Of a stretch of DNA of 64,000 nt, positions 3,033-61,332 are shown one piece after another. Position numbers and translations under genes: made by a program. The stretch is from positions 2,918,536 to 2,982,535 of the forward strand of contig OZ246960.1 of the NCBI GenBank assembly GCA_965232235.1, given 5' to 3'. Origin of the DNA: Candidatus Poribacteria bacterium (GTDB lineage Bacteria; Poribacteria; WGA-4E; JAJDTR01). Position 1 is the first letter of the stretch, and each line of letters opens with the position of its first letter. The notes below the pieces were generated by a model. That model searched no databases. It had not been told where the DNA came from and saw nothing but the letters and a program-made list of their open reading frames with translations.

Positions 3033-3059
3033 GTAGGTGCGGTTTCCAACCGCACCTAC
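3033..3059. repeat. Perfect 12-bp inverted repeat hairpin GTAGGTGCGGTT-tcc-AACCGCACCTAC, related to the tail module of the dispersed repeat family
   Basis: Read directly: 3033-3044 is the exact reverse complement of 3048-3059. No T-run follows on either strand. The same GTAGGTG..GGTTTCC..AACCGCACC words recur at 17606-17631, 31569-31591, 35429-35455, 37466-37485 and 38113-38192. Confidence 0.8.
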
Positions 3060-18111: not shown

Positions 18112-18149
18112 AATAATCTCGATCGCGTTCCTTGTTCAGTCACTCGATC
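18112..18149 (-). repeat. Core unit of the dispersed repeat family, minus orientation
   Basis: The reverse complement reads GATCGAGTGACTGAACAAGGAACGCGATCGAGATTATT. The family consensus is GATCAAGCGACTGAATAGGGAGCGCGATAGAGATC. Confidence 0.75.
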
Positions 18150-30944: not shown

Positions 30945-31415
30945 TTGGATAATGCCAAAACTCAGCACCGATGTGCCGCCGGAATTGTCGTACGCCTGAA
31001 CAAAGATTGCGTCGAATTCTTATTGTTAAAACAGATATGGACGACCGGCGAGGTTCAATGGGTCATGCCTAAGGGACACATTGAAAAAAGCGAAACCTGC
31101 GAGCAAGCAGCGATTCGCGAGGTGAGAGAAGAAGTCGGTCTTGAGGAACTTCGGCTTATTGCATGCTTGGGCAAGCAGGAGTTGCAGTATCGTGACGAGC
31201 ACGAAATTCAACACAAGAAAGTAGTCAGTTGGTATCTGATGGAAACACCCTATGAATCCCATCTTACTATCAAGGTTGAAAAGGGATTTGTCGAATCGAA
31301 GTGGCTTCCATACGAGGATGCGCGGAAACTGTGTTCATATGAAGACTTTCGAGAGTGGATAGATACGGCAGCAGATAATCTTAGGAATTACAGGCAACAC
31401 TCAGCCCCTGTTTGA
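30945..31415 (+). CDS. NUDIX hydrolase
   Basis: Nudix box GHIEKSETCEQAAIREVREEVGL. TTG start as listed. Its TGA stop (31413-31415) lies inside the leader module of a repeat element. Confidence 0.8.
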   Translation: MDNAKTQHRCAAGIVVRLNKDCVEFLLLKQIWTTGEVQWVMPKGHIEKSETCEQAAIREVREEVGLEELRLIACLGKQELQYRDEHEIQHKKVVSWYLMETPYESHLTIKVEKGFVESKWLPYEDARKLCSYEDFREWIDTAADNLRNYRQHSAPV

Positions 31416-31506
31416 AGAGTACAGTTTGCAGGGTGCGATCAAGCGAACGGATTGGGATCGCGATAGAAAATCCCATAGCAAATCCCGCGCGGTAGGGATA
31501 CATCGC
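31406..31506 (+). repeat. Repeat-family element I: leader module + one core unit + tail
   Basis: Leader CCCTGTTTGAAGAGTACAGTTTGCAGGGTG (31406-31436). Unit GATCAAGCGAACGGATTGGGATCGCGATAGAAAATCCC (31437-31474). Tail ATAGCAAATCCCGCGCGGTAGGGATACATCGC follows. Confidence 0.8.
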
Positions 31507-37250: not shown

Positions 37251-37641
37251 GGTGCTACCCATTCCTGTAGGTCAAGATCAAGTGACTGGATAAGGAACGC
37301 GACAGCAACTGCTTCATAGGGATCAAGTTAAGGAAGTTCGTCTAGTATTGGTGGAGTTCTTCGCCGCAAAACCCTTAACTTAGTCCCCATTGAGCTAGGA
37401 GTAAATCTCAATTTCACCCCATACGGTAGATGCGATCAAGCGACTGAAGAAGGGCGCGATGGAGTTCCCTTTCCAACCGCTCCGGTCCCCACGGAAACCA
37501 GTGTCATGAGTCACCATCTGTGGTGCACCCATCGACGAATGGGTTGGTATTCCATCGCCCATGTCTACATGGAGATTAACAGTTTAAGACATTAGAAACC
37601 GCGTGAATTGCGACCCAAAACGCTTAACTTGATCCTATAGG
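37251..37641 (+). repeat. Cluster of repeat-family fragments including an inverted-repeat pair
   Basis: Unit GATCAAGTGACTGGATAAGGAACGCGACAGCAAC starts at 37276. Unit + tail GATCAAGCGACTGAAGAAGGGCGCGATGGAGTTCCCTTTCCAACCGCTCCGG is at 37434-37485. Inverted repeat ATAGGGATCAAGTTAAG (37316-37332) pairs with CTTAACTTGATCCTAT (37623-37638). Confidence 0.7.
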
Positions 37642-38100: not shown

Positions 38101-38215
38101 GTGCTACCACACCGGTAGGTGCGATCAAGTGACCGAATAGGATCCAACGAGTGAATAGCGAGTGCGATAAGGATCCCTTTCTAACCGCACCGACACCCAA
38201 CACTTAACCACATTT
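38101..38215 (+). repeat. Repeat-family element: ~1.5 core units + tail
   Basis: GTGCTACCACACCGGTAGGTGC is followed by GATCAAGTGACCGAATAG, GGATCCAACGAGTGAATAGCGAGTGCGATAAGGATCC, then tail CTTTCTAACCGCACCGACACCCAACACTTAACCACATTT. The two GGATCC words (38140, 38171) can pair. Confidence 0.8.
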
Positions 38216-53473: not shown

Positions 53474-53656
53474 CTAGTCCTTACTCCCGTGATGAAATTC
53501 GTACGTGATTAATTCCCCCATCTATGTTGCCGATGCTGGATCGTTGTCTTGCAAGCTATTCCACGTCCTTCGAACCGTGCGAATTATATCACATTCTACG
53601 ACTTCTTTTTGAGGTCTTTTTTCCCCGTTCACAATTAGATTCTTTCTTTGCTTTAA

Positions 53657-53883
53657 GAGCCTGTTTGAAAAGTACACTTGTAGGGTGAAATCAACCAAGC
53701 GGATAGCGCGGGATCAAGCGAATGGATAATGAGTGCGATAGTGAATCCCGATAGAAATCCATCAAGCGACTGAACAGGGAGCGCGATAGAGATCGCACAC
53801 GTATGTAGCGGACAAGAAAAAACCTGAAAAGACTTTTGCAAATGACCAAAAATGGTTTTGCGACCGATTATTCAAACACGTTC
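53657..53883 (+). repeat. Repeat-family element II: leader + about 3 core units + tail; possibly MITE-like
   Basis: Leader CCTGTTTGAAAAGTACACTTGTAGGGTG (53660-53687). Units at 53688-53711 (partial), 53712-53749 and 53761-53794. Imperfect inverted ends GAGCCTGTTTGAA / TTCAAACACGTTC (11 of 13) are flanked by TAA on both sides. Confidence 0.75.
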
Positions 53884-54046
53884 TAAGTGATGACGCATCC
53901 GTAGTATTCGAATACGGTTAGGCGTTATTTCGCCATAACCCCATTGAGAAGATTCCATCTTGACATATTGACTTGATTTTGGGATAATCGGACCGTGAGG
54001 AACAGTCGTCAGAATACGGAGGGATACGAAAGGAAGGGTACGATTA

Positions 54047-56694: not shown

Positions 56695-57192
56695 ATGAAT
56701 ATTGGGTACGAGGTTTATGAAAATTACCTCCAATCCTTCGGCAGCCGTCTGAAATCGTCCTTTGGTAGTGAGAGAATTCTCTCCATTGCACTTTTCGGAT
56801 CTGTTGCGAGAAGGCAAGCCCGATCGGACAGTGATATTGACCTCTTGGTAGTCCACAAAGAAGTGGATTTCAACCCGGTACACCGGTCTGTCGATATTGT
56901 TCTTGCGTTAAGGGAGGAAAACGAGTATAAGCGCCTTATTGAGCAAGAGCTGAATCCGCAGCCTTTTTGCATCTTCATGACCGAGGGTGAACTTTGGGAT
57001 AGACCGCACATCTTACTCGACATTCTCGTCGAAGGCATCCTGCTATATGACATAGGCGTATTGGAGTCTCGCCTCCAAGCACTGAGAGAGCGGCTCAACG
57101 CCTTGGGATCGAAACGAGTTGCGTTACCGGACGGGACATGGTATTGGGATTTGAAACCGGACTGGAAGCCGGGTGAGATAATCGAGTTATGA
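56695..57192 (+). CDS. Nucleotidyltransferase-domain protein (MNT-type, putative antitoxin)
   Basis: Minimal NTase motif GSVARRQARSDSDIDLLV. It overlaps the downstream HEPN gene by 4 nt (ATGA). Confidence 0.75.
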   Translation: MNIGYEVYENYLQSFGSRLKSSFGSERILSIALFGSVARRQARSDSDIDLLVVHKEVDFNPVHRSVDIVLALREENEYKRLIEQELNPQPFCIFMTEGELWDRPHILLDILVEGILLYDIGVLESRLQALRERLNALGSKRVALPDGTWYWDLKPDWKPGEIIEL

Positions 57193-57599
57193 ACAATACC
57201 GACCTAAATGGCAGGCTAATCCTAGAGTCTCAGATGATCATGGAGGAAGCAAGACGTGCATTCAACAGCGAAGCTTGGAATCTCGTCGTACGAAGGTCGC
57301 AAGAGGTGGTTGAATTGTCGCTGAAGGGGCTTTTGAAGCTCATGGGTGTCGAATCTCCGAAAACACACGATGTTGGTGACACCTTCGCCAAAGTCTGTAC
57401 GGATAAGAAAATTGCGATTTCGAGTCGGAAACTGGCGGAGATGCAACGGATTTCTCATCAGTTGGCACGTGATCGGGCACCTGCGTTTTATATGGAGAAA
57501 GAATATTCACGAGAACAAGCTAGCCAAGCCTTGCAGTCCGCCGAAACAGTGTTAACCGAAGCCGAAGAAATGACTCAAAGACTTAATTTAGCCAGGTAA
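57189..57599 (+). CDS. HEPN-domain protein (putative toxin partner of MNT)
   Basis: ~136-aa all-helical protein. The pattern EEARRAF..W.LVVRRSQEVVELSLKGLL...G...PKTHDV matches the classic HEPN fold context, and it is coupled to the MNT gene. Confidence 0.65.
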   Translation: MNNTDLNGRLILESQMIMEEARRAFNSEAWNLVVRRSQEVVELSLKGLLKLMGVESPKTHDVGDTFAKVCTDKKIAISSRKLAEMQRISHQLARDRAPAFYMEKEYSREQASQALQSAETVLTEAEEMTQRLNLAR

Positions 57600-58861: not shown

Positions 58862-59785
58862 GTGATGAAGACCTTGAAGGCATTCCTTGAACTCATCCGA
58901 TATCCCCTCTTTGCCATCCCGATTGTCGCCACTCTGCCGGGGACTCTAATTGCGTCCGAGGGGCGAATAAACTGGCGTGTCGGAGTAACGTTGTTGACAG
59001 CCCTGCTCGGGTACTTCGCGGGGATGATGAAAAACGATTACTTCCACCGGGGACAAGATGCGGTCGCGAATCCGCACCGTCCGCTTCCGTCACACCGATT
59101 AACTCCCCGGCAGGTAATGATTACGGCGAGCACTATCTATATCGTCTGCGTTATTCTAGGATTTGTGCTCCATTTCAAGGCAGGGCTACTCGTGGTTGCT
59201 CTTGTGATGATTTCCCACTGTTACAACGCCATTTTCAAAGAGCGCGGAGTATTGGGAAGCATCAGTCTACCAATCGGCATTGGGTTGCTAAACGTATTTG
59301 GCGCGTTAGCCGTGAGCGGCGGGGTACCGCGCTTGGCTTGGTATGCGTTTGCCGCAACAATGCTCTACGATTGCGGCACGCACATTACGACAACTTTCAA
59401 GGACATTGAGCGTGACAAGAAAATCGGGATAACTACCACTCCCCTACAGTTGGGCATCAAACCTGCGCTCGCCGTTTCCGCCATTGCAACAATCTGTGCC
59501 TTCATCGTTGCGGCTTTGCCGCACTGGTTGGAAGGCGTCAGTTGGCACTACACTCTATGGATTCTCTGTGCGTTGATTGCCACGAGTATTACCCGACTGC
59601 CGCTCTATCTGGAGGCAAACGAAAAGAACGGTTATCGCGCATTGAAGGGTTCCATGGTTGGCGCCATAACATTTTTTCCCTGTCTAATTGGCGTCCAATT
59701 CTCGATATGGCAGTCCGCGCTAGTCATTGTGCCGCTCCTCTTGATAACGCTGGTTCTATTGCAGATCACGAAGCGGGAAGTTTAG
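58862..59785 (+). CDS. UbiA-superfamily prenyltransferase with atypical first Asp-rich motif
   Basis: 8-9 TM helices. The first motif NDYFHRGQD (59033-59059) has His where the canonical NDxxDxxxD has Asp. The second motif is FKDIERDKKIG. Confidence 0.75.
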   Translation: MMKTLKAFLELIRYPLFAIPIVATLPGTLIASEGRINWRVGVTLLTALLGYFAGMMKNDYFHRGQDAVANPHRPLPSHRLTPRQVMITASTIYIVCVILGFVLHFKAGLLVVALVMISHCYNAIFKERGVLGSISLPIGIGLLNVFGALAVSGGVPRLAWYAFAATMLYDCGTHITTTFKDIERDKKIGITTTPLQLGIKPALAVSAIATICAFIVAALPHWLEGVSWHYTLWILCALIATSITRLPLYLEANEKNGYRALKGSMVGAITFFPCLIGVQFSIWQSALVIVPLLLITLVLLQITKREV

Positions 59786-60036
59786 CTCGACTTTGTACAA
59801 ATGTACAACGATTGGATTGTACGGAAAGGCGTACAAAACCAAACTCGTACGCGGGAATCAAGCGACTGAATAGGGAGCGCGATAGAAATCCCCTTGCCCC
59901 GCCGTGATGGCACTGGAATCCGCCGCCGACTTTTTCAATGGTCAACCAAAAAGACCAGATGGTTAAAATCTCTCCCACTTTTCTTCAACGCTTGAATGAC
60001 ACCGTTCGTTGTCTCGCTCAAATGTACAAAGTCGAG
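59786..60036 (+). mobile_element. 251-bp MITE-like element carrying one core unit of the repeat family
   Basis: Perfect 14-bp terminal inverted repeats CTCGACTTTGTACA (59786-59799) and TGTACAAAGTCGAG (60023-60036). The 5-bp direct repeat TTTAG lies on both flanks (59781-59785, 60037-60041). Internal unit AATCAAGCGACTGAATAGGGAGCGCGATAGAAATCCCC is at 59856-59893. No ORF with coding features. Confidence 0.85.
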
Positions 60037-60041
60037 TTTAG

Positions 60042-60240
60042 GACCTGTTTGAAACGTACACTTGTCGGGTGAGATTAAACGAACGATCAACTGAGTGAAT
60101 AGCGAAGGATCAAGCGACTGAATAAGGAGATCACGGGAGATCAAACGAACGAATAGTGAGTGCGATAGAGATCTTGATAGCGATCGCATTAGAGATTCCA
60201 TAGAGATCCACTGATCGCCATCCACAAAACACTTACCTTC
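60042..60240 (+). repeat. Repeat-family element III: leader + about 4 tandem core units + tail
   Basis: Leader GACCTGTTTGAAACGTACACTTGTCGGGTG (60042-60071). Units at 60073-60107, 60108-60136 and 60139-60173, plus degenerate 60174-60223. Tail CCACAAAACACTTACC follows. Confidence 0.8.
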
Positions 60241-60303
60241 GACATAAGGTCTTGCGACTTACCATCTAACGGGAAACATACAGAAAGAGTTTGGAAGTGT
60301 AAA

Positions 60304-61332
60304 ATGCAGTACATACTGATTGCACTGCTTTCTGCAGTTCTGTTTGGTGCATCGACGCCCATAGGGAAGATACTCCTTAACAGCCTTCCGCCTTTCCAAC
60401 TCGCGGGATTGCTGTATATCGGAGCGGCGATTGGTGTTCTCCCTTTCTCGATAAGACTGAGAAGCGCGAAGAAAATTCATCGGATTGGGAAACGCAATAT
60501 ACTTCGGCTAATCGGAGCAATCTCCTTTGGTGGAGTCGCGGGGCCCGTGTTGCTCCTGTTTGGATTGCAAAAGGCGCCGGCAGCCTCCGTAGCGATGTGG
60601 CTAAACATGGAACTAGCCGCTACCGCTATTCTAGGGTGTCTGCTATTCCGAGAATATCTGGGCGGCTATGGATGGGTAGGAGTTCTCGGTACTATTGCAG
60701 CATCGATGACGTTGTCGTGGCACGGAGGGACAATCGGCATGTATGCCCTGCTGCTTGTTGCCGCAGCCAGCATCTGCTGGGGAATAGACAATCATTTGAC
60801 AGCTTTGATTGACGGGATTACTCCAACTCAAAGCACATTTTGGAAGGGTGCGATTGCGGGCGGGACGAATCTAATTATAAGCGTTATGCTAGAACCGTAT
60901 GGGAAAACGGCGTGGATTCTGGCATCTAGTATAATTGTAGGAGTGTTCTCGTACGGATTCAGTATTAGTCTTTACATCTTGGCGGCACAAAATCTTGGCG
61001 CAACCCGGAGTCAAATGATTTTCGCGAGCGCACCGTTCTTTGGAGTAGCTTTATCCATTATTCTTTTGAACGAGAGCATATCAGCCGTCCAAGTCACGGC
61101 TGCCGCGATTCTCGTTATCTCGCTGACTGTATTGTTTCGAGATCGACACTCCCATTCGCATACCCATGAACCTCTACACCACAAGCATAGACACAGACAT
61201 GACGATGGCCACCACGACCATGTTCACACTGGAGACGAAGACTCGGGCTATCACAGTCATTGGCACACACATGAACCGATGACCCATGCACATCCCCACT
61301 GGTCAGATATCCACCATCGGCACCAGCACTAG
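60304..61332 (+). CDS. DMT/EamA-family permease with C-terminal histidine-rich tail
   Basis: 10 TM helices in two EamA-like halves. The last 61 aa (61147-61329) contain 24 His (HSHSHTHEPLHHKHRHRHDDGHHDHVH...HHRHQH). Confidence 0.8.
   Translation: MQYILIALLSAVLFGASTPIGKILLNSLPPFQLAGLLYIGAAIGVLPFSIRLRSAKKIHRIGKRNILRLIGAISFGGVAGPVLLLFGLQKAPAASVAMWLNMELAATAILGCLLFREYLGGYGWVGVLGTIAASMTLSWHGGTIGMYALLLVAAASICWGIDNHLTALIDGITPTQSTFWKGAIAGGTNLIISVMLEPYGKTAWILASSIIVGVFSYGFSISLYILAAQNLGATRSQMIFASAPFFGVALSIILLNESISAVQVTAAAILVISLTVLFRDRHSHSHTHEPLHHKHRHRHDDGHHDHVHTGDEDSGYHSHWHTHEPMTHAHPHWSDIHHRHQH

What the first reader, a model, noticed from the sequence alone, without database searches (positions are those of the whole stretch)
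59781..60041. 251-bp MITE with perfect 14-bp TIRs and 5-bp TSD inserted exactly at the UbiA-family gene stop codon
CTCGACTTTGTACA (59786-59799) is the exact reverse complement of TGTACAAAGTCGAG (60023-60036); 16 of 18 match if the arms are extended. The pentamer TTTAG flanks both ends (59781-59785 and 60037-60041). This is the classic footprint of a non-autonomous transposon. The left TSD copy supplies the TAG stop of the prenyltransferase gene. Removing the element would place that stop directly against the leader of repeat element III, so the MITE landed at the junction between a gene end and another family member. The element carries one core unit of the dispersed family, five GTAC(A) words within 60 nt near its left end, and a right half (GACTTTTTCAATGGTCAACCAAAAAG..) homologous to 53832-53858 of element II. 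This links the dispersed repeats to a mobile, probably recently active, element. No transposase in the window has matching ends.
Basis: seen in the sequence. Interest (0 to 1): 0.65.

Follow-up and report, generated by a model that had tools for sequence, protein, structure and literature searches.

The report
IS701-derived MITE in a Poribacteria genome
The 251-bp segment is a real miniature transposon, one copy of a large and apparently undescribed family in sponge-symbiont Poribacteria that borrows the transposase of a 1.45-kb IS701-family insertion sequence; this copy is an old, fixed insertion just after a gene's stop codon, so it is ordinary in kind.

Summary
CTCGACTTTGTACA (59786-59799) is the exact reverse complement of 60023-60036. 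TTTAG flanks both ends, and the left TTTAG holds the TAG stop of the UbiA-family gene.

The element is a genuine MITE. A scan of species-representative genomes with its right end found at least 113 loci, almost all in Candidatus Poribacteria MAGs. Copies paired with the left arm are mostly 217-218 bp, with a second group at 249-258 bp. Their 5-bp flanks are identical in 55 of 81 pairs, against 13 expected. The target consensus is CTWAG.

Elements of 1445-1451 bp with the same ends encode an IS701-family transposase. The MITE's last 109 bp are 86% identical to the 3' end of that IS and keep a 26-codon remnant of the transposase gene.

The 251-bp form is the 218-bp backbone plus one 34-nt "core" unit, which sits in a conserved GTAG-headed hairpin. 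The "leader" next to the element is the left inverted repeat of a second MITE family with the same target, which explains the abutting insertions.

Sister lineages (UbiA 89-92% identical) lack the element. All close strains carry it. Its own sample shows no autonomous copy and no near-identical paralog. "Recently active" is therefore not supported for this copy.

The parts
59781..59785 (.). Left copy of the 5-bp target-site duplication TTTAG. It contains the TAG stop (59783-59785) of the UbiA-family gene.
   Evidence: TTTAG/TTTAG also flanks two other family copies, L040 and L079. The family target consensus is C-T-W-A-G, with T at position 2 and A at position 4 in 55 of 55 perfect duplications.
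59786..59803 (+). Left terminal inverted repeat: 14 nt perfect (CTCGACTTTGTACA), 16 of 18 when extended.
   Evidence: The same 14-mer (one mismatch or fewer) lies 156-565 bp upstream of the right end in 65 copies, and 1445-1451 bp upstream in 10 full-length elements.
59786..59850 (+). Left subterminal region with repeated (T)GTAC(A) words. It is specific to the MITE and shares only about the first 17 nt with the full-length IS.
   Evidence: Alignment of 35 copies. BLAST against the full-length IS gives no left-end hit beyond the TIR. That the TGTACAA words are transposase-binding sites is inference only.
59847..59902 (+). REP-like hairpin of the MITE backbone. The family consensus is GTAGG-CGGGG...CCCCG-CC. 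In this copy the head is GTAC, the 5' arm is GCGGG (59851-59855) and the 3' arm is CCCGC (59898-59902). The core unit splits the hairpin.
   Evidence: pairs 65-85 are paired in 23-25 of 25 sequences, and one G-C to A-U double change occurs in 3 sequences. GTAG-headed hairpins number 377 in the loci against 20 in shuffles.
59857..59890 (+). One 34-nt core unit (ATCAAGCGACTGAATAGGGAGCGCGATAGAAATC). This is the difference between the 251-bp form and the 217/218-bp form.
   Evidence: The 218-bp copies lack exactly this block. Eight other 249-253-bp copies carry it at the same element position, 71. Its read depth is about 50-100 times that of the flanks in the sample.
59928..60036 (+). Right module, derived from the 3' end of the parent IS701-family IS. 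It holds a remnant of the last 26 or so codons of the transposase gene (59929-60006) plus the right TIR.
   Evidence: 86% identity to the last 109 nt of the 1445/1451-bp elements. tblastn of the transposase against the window hits only 59929-60006: 69% over 26 aa, E 6e-6. Other contigs in the sample match from 59927-59940 to 60036-60042.
60019..60036 (-). Right terminal inverted repeat. In the full-length IS the transposase stop codon TAA lies here; in this copy it reads CAA.
60037..60041 (.). Right copy of the 5-bp target-site duplication TTTAG.
60042..60060 (+). Neighbour, not part of the element: the left TIR of a type-B MITE (GACCTGTTTGAAACGTACA; family consensus ARCCTGTTTGAAAAGT). It is followed by core units up to about 60190. 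No right TIR is recognisable.
   Evidence: there are 40 forward and 42 reverse type-B ends in the loci and window, the elements are 127-290 bp, and they are flanked by CTWAG-like pentamers. Type-A copies very often abut ...ACAGGCT|CTWAG| or |CTWAG|AGCCTGT....

Best explanation
Window 59786-60036 is one copy of a non-autonomous transposon (MITE) family of Candidatus Poribacteria.

Composition. The family backbone is 217-218 bp. It is a chimera of four parts: a 14-17-nt terminal inverted repeat, a MITE-specific left part with TGTACAA-like words, a GTAG-headed GC-rich hairpin, and the last 110 or so bp of a 1.45-kb IS701-family insertion sequence, including the end of its transposase gene. The 251-bp subfamily, to which this copy belongs, carries one extra 34-nt core unit inside the hairpin.

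Mobilisation (inferred, not shown). A DDE transposase of the IS701 family, supplied in trans by a full-length copy, recognises the shared ends CTCGACTTTGTACAAA. It makes a 5-bp staggered cut at a CTWAG-like target and inserts the element. Gap repair then duplicates the pentamer.

This insertion. The target was the TTTAG that contains the UbiA stop codon. That pentamer was also the flank of an older type-B MITE with the same target preference. Each insertion regenerates the target at both of its ends, which is why these elements pile up end to end. The coding sequence was left intact.

Age. The insertion happened after this lineage split from sister lineages whose UbiA is 89-92% identical. It is now fixed. 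In this organism's sample no closely related autonomous copy is detectable, so this copy is most likely an immobile relic.
For: Shown:
1. TIR, TSD and stop-codon geometry.
2. At least 113 loci carry the 20-nt right end, almost all in at least 9 Poribacteria MAGs.
3. TIR pairs have length modes of 217-218 bp (24 copies) and 249-258 bp (13 copies), with a tail to 866 bp.
4. The 5-bp flanks are identical in 55 of 81 pairs, against a mean of 12.9 (maximum 26) when the flanks are re-dealt. The matches include rare pentamers such as ATGAG, CTCAT, GTAAG, GTTAG, ATTAG, CTAAT and CTAAC. They are therefore duplications, not part of the repeat.
5. Ten elements of 1445-1451 bp have the same ends and matching TSDs. 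Each encodes one ORF of about 450-467 aa that matches NCBIfam NF049999, IS701-family transposase (333.6 bits, cutoff 170), and Pfam DDE_5 (5.9e-27).
6. The MITE's right 109 nt are 86% identical to the IS 3' end, and a 26-aa transposase remnant is present.
7. Eight other copies have the 251-type architecture, with the core unit at position 71.
8. Orthologous UbiA-EamA spacers in lineages with 92%, 90% and 89% identical UbiA lack the element. The spacer is 248-274 nt or 167 nt, against 518 nt here.
9. IS copies are 97-100% identical within OZ242354 and 98.8-99.9% within CAXXCS01. The 217-bp MITEs in OZ244829 are 97-98.6% identical within each subfamily. The system is or was recently active elsewhere.
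10. A 5-bp duplication has a precedent within IS701: ISAba11 makes a characteristic 5-bp direct repeat (PMC7885321).

Inferred: trans-mobilisation, TGTACAA words as binding sites, and the order of the type-B and type-A insertions.
Against: - No exact empty site (...GGGAAGTTTAGGACCTG...) was found. The lineages that lack the element read GAAGTTTGAGCC... and are diverged in the spacer (83% identity over the alignable part). Insertion is the parsimonious reading, not a demonstrated one.
- A scan of JGI metagenomes for the gene end found nothing.
- No transposition was observed, and no transposase with these ends was found in the window or, at 80% nt identity or more, in the contigs of the window's own sample.
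- Only the first 17 or so nt of the left end are shared with the IS, so the MITE is not a simple internal-deletion derivative.
The window's own genome was not scanned as such.
Confidence: 0.9

Rival explanations
1. A full-length IS701-family element inserted here and then decayed in place by internal deletion. On this reading the 251-bp piece never transposed as a short element.
For: The right 109 nt derive from the IS 3' end and both TIRs are those of the IS.
Against: The same short architecture recurs at more than 30 (218-type) and 8 (251-type) other loci in several genomes, each with its own TSD. That architecture is the left MITE-specific 70 nt, the hairpin and the right module, with the core unit at position 71. 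The left 130 nt have no counterpart inside the IS. Independent in-situ deletions would not give identical breakpoints.
Confidence: 0.03
2. The element is part of a REP/BIME-like mosaic that spreads by a HUH (RAYT-type) enzyme or by recombination. On this reading the inverted ends and TTTAG are incidental.
For: The backbone holds a GTAG-headed GC-rich hairpin. Some larger copies hold arrays of 84-nt inverted hairpin doublets. GTAG hairpins are strongly enriched in these genomes. GTAG-tagged REPs are a known superfamily (PMC3733652).
Against: HUH/Y1 transposition makes no target duplication, by established knowledge of IS200/IS605 and RAYTs. Here a 5-bp duplication is matched in 55 of 81 copies. 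The ends are shared with a DDE-transposase IS that has the same TSD. The hairpin is internal, not terminal.
Confidence: 0.03
3. Chance inverted repeat around a local repeat; not a mobile element.
For: A single window cannot exclude it. The 14-mer search with 2 mismatches gave 2 or more hits in 6 of 100 shuffles.
Against: The family evidence. The expected number of perfect 14-nt inverted repeats at this spacing is 0.18 per window.
Confidence: 0.01
4. This reading does not exclude a MITE origin. The fixed copy has been co-opted, for example as a structured 3' UTR or RNA-stability element for the UbiA transcript, or as a spacer or insulator upstream of the EamA gene.
For: - It sits immediately after a stop codon and is fixed in all close strains.
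- The internal hairpin is conserved, with one compensatory change and many G-U-compatible variants on the + strand.
- REP-type hairpins downstream of genes are thought to act as RNA elements (PMC3733652).
- A sponge metatranscriptome contains fragments of other copies.
Against: - No promoter-like or intrinsic-terminator-like site lies in the element.
- There is no Rfam match.
- The covariation is thin.
- The RNA evidence is weak, comes from other copies, and may include DNA.
- Fixation is equally expected for a neutral relic.
Confidence: 0.12

Closest known systems
Bacterial MITEs derived from insertion sequences (for example MITEAba12 of Acinetobacter, PMC6382973; Correia elements of Neisseria, from my own knowledge)
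   Same: Short, non-coding, with TIRs shared with an autonomous IS. Fixed-length TSD, many intergenic copies, and mobilisation in trans.
   Different: The parent here is an IS701-family element. The host is an uncultivated sponge-symbiont phylum. The element carries a REP-like hairpin that hosts variable numbers of a 34-nt unit. Only the right 110 bp and the terminal 17 or so nt come from the IS.
IS701 family of insertion sequences, in particular ISAba11
   Same: - The full-length relatives match the IS701 transposase models.
- They are 1445-1451 bp, within the family range of 1400-1550 bp (PMC2266710).
- They have one ORF and short TIRs.
- The 5-bp direct repeat matches that of ISAba11 (TATAG, ATTTA; PMC7885321).
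   Different: - The classical IS701 TSD is exactly 4 bp (PMC2266710); here it is 5 bp with consensus CTWAG.
- The ends CTCGACTTTGTACA fit the published end consensus ---YACT-Y--YR only in part.
- The window copy itself encodes no transposase.
Mosaic intergenic repeats: BOX elements of Streptococcus pneumoniae and BIMEs of E. coli (from my own knowledge); GTAG-tagged REPs (PMC3733652)
   Same: Modular build with a variable number of an internal unit (0, 1, 2, 3 or more core units; 84-nt hairpin doublets in arrays). GTAG head followed by a GC-rich palindrome. Preference for positions downstream of genes.
   Different: Those elements have no TIR plus TSD and no DDE partner. Here the modules ride inside a classical cut-or-copy DDE MITE.

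Membership tests
MITE (prokaryotic miniature inverted-repeat transposable element) | Short (under about 600 bp) and without a transposase gene | tested here: met
   251 bp. The two ORFs overlapping it have no Pfam hit. Only a 26-codon transposase remnant is present.
MITE (prokaryotic miniature inverted-repeat transposable element) | Terminal inverted repeats | tested here: met
   14 of 14 perfect, 16 of 18 extended. The ends are conserved across 35 aligned copies.
MITE (prokaryotic miniature inverted-repeat transposable element) | Target-site duplication of fixed length | tested here: met
   TTTAG/TTTAG here. 55 of 81 family pairs are perfect, against 12.9 expected.
MITE (prokaryotic miniature inverted-repeat transposable element) | Multiple copies at unrelated loci | tested here: met
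   At least 65 short TIR-paired copies in at least 9 MAGs. In the window's own sample, depth at the element ends is about 13-15 times the flanking depth.
MITE (prokaryotic miniature inverted-repeat transposable element) | Ends shared with an autonomous element that can supply the transposase | tested here: met
   Elements of 1445-1451 bp with the same ends and the same TSD, encoding an IS701-family transposase. They were found in other Poribacteria genomes, not in the window's sample.
MITE (prokaryotic miniature inverted-repeat transposable element) | Presence/absence polymorphism at orthologous sites (evidence of mobility) | tested here: inconclusive
   Absent in lineages with 89-92% identical UbiA. 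Present in all close strains. An exact empty site with identical flanks was not found.
IS701 family (parent element, judged on the full-length relatives) | DDE transposase matching IS701-family profiles | tested here: met
   NF049999 transpos_IS701_3, 333.6 bits (cutoff 170). PF13546 DDE_5, 5.9e-27.
IS701 family (parent element, judged on the full-length relatives) | Length 1400-1550 bp, single ORF (PMC2266710) | tested here: met
   1445-1451 bp, with one ORF of about 450-467 aa.
IS701 family (parent element, judged on the full-length relatives) | 4-bp target duplication (2008 family definition, PMC2266710) | tested here: not met
   The TSD is 5 bp. The same departure is documented for ISAba11, which is classed in IS701 (PMC7885321). 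It therefore argues for a subgroup, not against membership.
IS701 family (parent element, judged on the full-length relatives) | Catalytic DDE residues intact and transposition activity | not tested
   The residues were not mapped. Near-identical copies within a genome (97-100%) suggest recent activity.
GTAG-tagged REP (for the internal hairpin only) | Unpaired GTAG tag next to a GC-rich palindrome, in high copy number (PMC3733652) | tested here: met
   The family consensus is CGTAGG-CGGGG-CATCTTG-CCCCG-CC. GTAG hairpins number 377 against 20 in shuffles. In the window copy the tag is mutated to GTAC.
GTAG-tagged REP (for the internal hairpin only) | Association with a RAYT (Y1 HUH) gene | not tested
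   No RAYT search was made in Poribacteria genomes.

The most novel reading that the evidence does not exclude
The 34-nt core unit may be a separate self-spreading or self-expanding module, not just MITE filler. It would home to one precise place: between the 5' arm and the loop of GTAG-headed REP-like hairpins. It is found there in three unrelated host contexts:
- type-A MITEs: GTAGGCGGGA|core|CCCTTGCCCCGCC
- type-B MITEs: GTAGGGTGCG|core
- free hairpins: GTAGGTGCG|core|CCTCTAACCGCACC

On this reading the IS701-derived MITE acts as a vehicle that carries a REP-like landing pad, and its cargo, around the genome. That would be a three-level nesting of non-coding mobile DNA in an uncultivated symbiont.
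Probability: 0.2. Interest if true: 0.6.

Novelty: new member of a known kind. Interest (0 to 1): 0.35.

Why it matters
- It explains a conspicuous set of intergenic repeats in Poribacteria, major uncultivated sponge symbionts. These are two MITE families that share one target (CTWAG), plus nested small modules.
- It gives annotators exact ends, target and parent IS. Spurious ORFs over these repeats can then be masked, such as the 96-aa ORF 59935..60225.
- It adds a 5-bp-TSD, CTWAG-targeting subgroup with MITE derivatives to the IS701 family.
- Presence/absence of individual copies could serve as strain markers in sponge microbiome studies.
- For this particular locus the consequence is small, because the UbiA reading frame is untouched.

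Tried and rejected
- Rfam at gathering thresholds over the whole window: no match.
- Cyanobacterial origin, suggested by a GCGATCGC word: rejected, since there are only 3 HIP1 sites in 64 kb.
- Minus-strand ORFs over the element (59935..60225, 96 aa; 59766..59978, 70 aa): no Pfam hit. The apparent peptide is the reverse strand of a transposase remnant, so they are spurious.
- Exact-protein look-ups for the 307-aa UbiA ORF from GTG and for EamA: not on record. This was solved by a homology search from the ATG start.
- Empty-site search: no joint skipping 59786-60041 in nine runs. The JGI metagenome scan for the gene end gave 0 hits.
- Autonomous partner in the window's own sample: the interior of both IS subtypes is uncovered at 80% likeness or more in X1, X4 and X6. 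An 84%-identical 1-kb piece exists in X5, from another host. Contigs show presence, not absence.
- Promoter and terminator scan of 59600-60400: nothing in the element.
- Metatranscriptome X25: only short fragments of other copies, so inconclusive.
- Literature: no paper links Poribacteria and MITEs, and none describes IS701-derived MITEs of this kind.
- Homology of 59928-59954 to 53832-53858 (element II): not significant.
Full report
**1.

In one search the bases 59786-59799 read CTCGACTTTGTACA and 60023-60036 read TGTACAAAGTCGAG, its exact reverse complement. Extending inward gives 16 of 18 matches. TTTAG lies at 59781-59785 and again at 60037-60041. ORF 58862..59785 is a UbiA-family prenyltransferase (Pfam PF01040, E 5.6e-37; translation). 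Its TAG stop is the last three bases of the left TTTAG. The 14-mer occurs nowhere else in the window, even with two mismatches allowed. The window contains exactly one perfect inverted repeat of 14 nt or more at 100-700 nt spacing, where local shuffles give 0.18.

**2. Where the window comes from.**

Public runs that hold this stretch include a sponge metagenome and several coded host organisms. Nearly all are in Candidatus Poribacteria MAGs. A few are in Chloroflexota MAGs, and one is in a 1.9-kb low-coverage contig binned as Vibrio. UbiA homologs that carry a name are labelled Candidatus Poribacteria. The window is therefore from a poribacterial sponge symbiont.

**3. It is a member of a MITE family.**

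I paired each right end with the nearest upstream CTCGACTTTGTACA, allowing one mismatch. The element lengths have a main mode at 217-218 bp (24 copies) and a second group at 249-258 bp (13 copies). A tail runs to 565 bp, with a few copies at 804-866 bp.

The five bases outside the two ends are identical in 55 of 81 non-redundant pairs. Re-dealing the right flanks among copies gives a mean of 12.9 and a maximum of 26. The matches include rare pentamers: ATGAG, CTCAT, GTAAG, GTTAG, ATTAG, CTAAT, CTAAC and TTTAG. The pentamer is therefore a duplicated target and not an extension of the inverted repeat. The target consensus is C-T-W-A-G, with T at position 2 and A at position 4 in all 55.

The window copy aligns end to end with the others. 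It is 79-88% identical to eight 249-253-bp copies and 74-85% identical to the 216-219-bp copies.

**4. The autonomous partner.**

Ten elements of 1445-1451 bp have the same ends and matching 5-bp duplications. Each carries a single ORF of about 450-467 aa on the strand that corresponds to the window's + strand. The ORF matches NCBIfam NF049999, "IS701 family transposase", at 333.6 bits against a cutoff of 170. It also matches Pfam DDE_5 at 5.9e-27. Its TAA stop lies inside the right inverted repeat.

Copies are 97-100% identical within genome OZ242354 and 98.8-99.9% within CAXXCS01. The IS is, or recently was, active in those genomes.

The size fits the family range of 1400-1550 bp. The classical family TSD is 4 bp (PMC2266710), but the IS701-family element ISAba11 makes a "characteristic 5-bp direct repeat" (PMC7885321). 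A 5-bp duplication therefore has a precedent within the family.

**5. Anatomy of the MITE.**

Element positions 143-251 (window 59928-60036) are 86% identical to the last 109 nt of the 1445/1451-bp IS. tblastn of the transposase against the whole window hits only 59929-60006: 69% identity over 26 residues, E 6e-6. The right module is therefore the 3' end of the transposase gene plus the inverted repeat.

The left part shares only about its first 17 nt with the IS. The rest is MITE-specific and rich in (T)GTAC(A) words, which also occur at both ends of the IS. That these are transposase-binding sites is my inference.

In the middle lies a hairpin. The family consensus is CGTAGG-CGGGG-CATCTTG-CCCCG-CC. 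It is paired in 23-25 of 25 distinct 218-type copies and has one G-C to A-U double change in three of them.

The 251-bp form differs from the 218-bp form by exactly one 33-34-nt block inserted between the 5' arm and the loop of this hairpin. Larger copies carry two or three units, or other cargo.

**6. Why it sits against "repeat element III".**

The "leader" (60042 onward, similar to 53658 onward and 31405 onward) is the left inverted repeat of a second MITE family. I call it type B. Its ends are ARCCTGTTTGAAAAGT...ACTTTTCAAACAGGYT, it is 127-290 bp long, and it is flanked by the same kind of pentamer. Type-A copies very often abut type-B ends...ACAGGCT|CTWAG|A-element or A-element|CTWAG|AGCCTGT....

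Each insertion duplicates the CTWAG-like target and so leaves a fresh target at both of its ends. Successive insertions therefore stack end to end. Here the TTTAG was at once the end of the UbiA gene, the flank of the type-B element, and the target of the type-A element. Element II of the window (53658-53883) is a type-B copy with a degenerate right end, TTCAAACACGTT, and flanks TTAAG/CTAAG. Element III has no recognisable right end.

**7. Age and activity of this copy.**

UbiA orthologs were found by homology search and their contigs fetched.

- In four contigs with 92%-identical UbiA the UbiA-EamA spacer is 248-274 nt, against 518 nt here. It reads GAAGTTTGAGCCGTC... straight from the stop codon into a degenerate leader-like sequence followed by a core-unit repeat, with no type-A element.
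- The 89% lineage has a 167-nt spacer with neither element.
- The 90% lineage has other genes inserted.
- In all of them the stop codon is at the same codon (TGA or TAA).

By contrast, every close strain seen in nine runs from at least four coded host organisms and a sponge metagenome has contigs that cross a junction of the filled site or match its flanks. No contig joins 59785 to 60037 or 60042.

In the window's own sample, depth at the element ends is about 13-15 times the flanking depth. The long paralogous pieces differ from this copy by 10-20%; for example, a full-length copy has 48 differences in 269 nt. When the two IS subtypes are laid on that sample, only their terminal 110 or so nt are covered at 80% likeness or more. 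Another host's sample has an 84%-identical 1-kb piece.

I conclude that the insertion post-dates the split from the 89-92% lineages. It is fixed, and it belongs to an old family that probably has no close autonomous partner in this organism. "Recently active" applies to other poribacterial genomes, not to this copy. An exact empty site was not found, also not in JGI metagenomes. Insertion, rather than precise loss in the relatives, is therefore the parsimonious reading and not a proven one.

**8. Function.**

No promoter-like or intrinsic-terminator-like site lies in the element, and there is no Rfam match. One sponge metatranscriptome holds only short fragments of other copies and of core arrays. 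The UbiA frame is unchanged. I therefore treat the copy as a neutral relic. A role as a structured 3' region is possible but unsupported.

**9. Side finding: REP-like hairpins and the core unit.**

The MITE's hairpin has the form of a GTAG-tagged REP, that is, an unpaired GTAG next to a GC-rich palindrome (PMC3733652). Hairpins headed by GTAG number 377 in the 880 kb of fetched loci, against 20 after shuffling, and they fall into several sequence classes. The window has an intact one at about 3033-3059.

Two 804-866-bp type-A copies contain 5.8 tandem copies of an 84-nt unit made of two such hairpins in inverted orientation. This resembles BIME or REPIN-like arrays.

Core-unit arrays have GTAG within 16 nt upstream in 38% of 198 cases, against 2.9% at random positions. 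The arm just upstream of the array is often complementary to sequence just downstream (34% against 17%). Examples are GTAGGTGCG|core|CCTCTAACCGCACC and GTAGGCGGGA|core|CCCTTGCCCCGCC.

The core unit thus sits at the same place in REP-like hairpins of different sequence and in different host elements. Whether it spreads on its own is open. This is my "novel case".

**10. Verdict.**

The finding is a real, well-defined MITE. In kind it is ordinary, a new member of a known class. I found no description of it in the searchable literature.

Noticed in passing
window 53653-53888; 31402-31490; 60042-60190: A second MITE family (type B). TIRs are ARCCTGTTTGAAAAGT / ACTTTTCAAACAGGYT, typical length is 127-290 bp, and the flanks are CTWAG-like, as for type A. 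The window has three left ends (31407, 53660, 60044). Element II (53658-53883) has a degenerate right end, TTCAAACACGTT, and flanks TTAAG/CTAAG. No autonomous type-B element was seen in the fetched loci.
   Followed up: partly
window 18116-18148(-), 31438-31485, 37277-37310, 37435-37472, 38118-38180, 53690-53794, 59857-59890, 60086-60190: The 34-nt core unit (ATCAAGCGAGTGAATAGCGAGTGCGATAGAGATC, itself built of 11-12-nt sub-repeats ending in ATAG) occurs singly or in short arrays. It is typically placed just after a GTAGG-like head and a short GC arm, that is, inside REP-like hairpins (for example 38108 GTAGGTGCG|core x2|TTTCTAACCGCACCG). Its depth in the sample is 50-100 times the single-copy depth.
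   Followed up: partly
window about 3033-3059; loci L003, L005:2919-3722, L038, L108:6197-7062: GTAG-tagged REP-like hairpins (for example GTAGGTGCGGTTTCCAACCGCAC) are strongly enriched in Poribacteria loci: 377 against 20 in shuffles. In L005 and L108, 84-nt doublets of inverted hairpins form 5.8-copy tandem arrays inside type-A MITEs. No search for a RAYT gene was made.
   Followed up: partly
L009, L041, L053, L061 (Chloroflexota MAG JAJRYT01), L015 (Promineifilaceae), L047 and L099 (Ardenticatenaceae), L095 (1.9-kb contig binned as Vibrio): The same 20-nt IS end occurs in MAGs of another phylum. Examples are a 1262-bp stretch between the two ends with a 414-codon open frame (L041) and a 156-bp MITE-like copy (L053). 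The interiors are only about 70% identical to the poribacterial ones. This could be an old shared IS lineage, horizontal transfer among co-resident symbionts, or binning error. It is not resolved.
   Followed up: no
window 56695-57599: A nucleotidyltransferase/HEPN gene pair (a candidate toxin-antitoxin type module) lies upstream of the dehydrogenase-UbiA genes. In the 92% sister lineage three of four contigs instead carry a restriction-modification pair (RE_XamI, Eco57I-type methylase) directly upstream of UbiA (L114, L116, L117). The neighbourhood is therefore a hotspot of defence-gene exchange.
   Followed up: no
window 59080-59174: In run X6 the strain's contig differs from the window at 13 positions within about 95 nt of the UbiA gene, but at none from 59690 into the MITE. 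This looks like a recombination patch rather than uniform divergence.
   Followed up: no
window 59935-60225 (-): A 96-aa ORF that gene callers may report runs over core units, the type-B TIR and the type-A right module. It has no Pfam hit and is the reverse strand of repeat DNA, so it is almost certainly spurious.
   Followed up: yes
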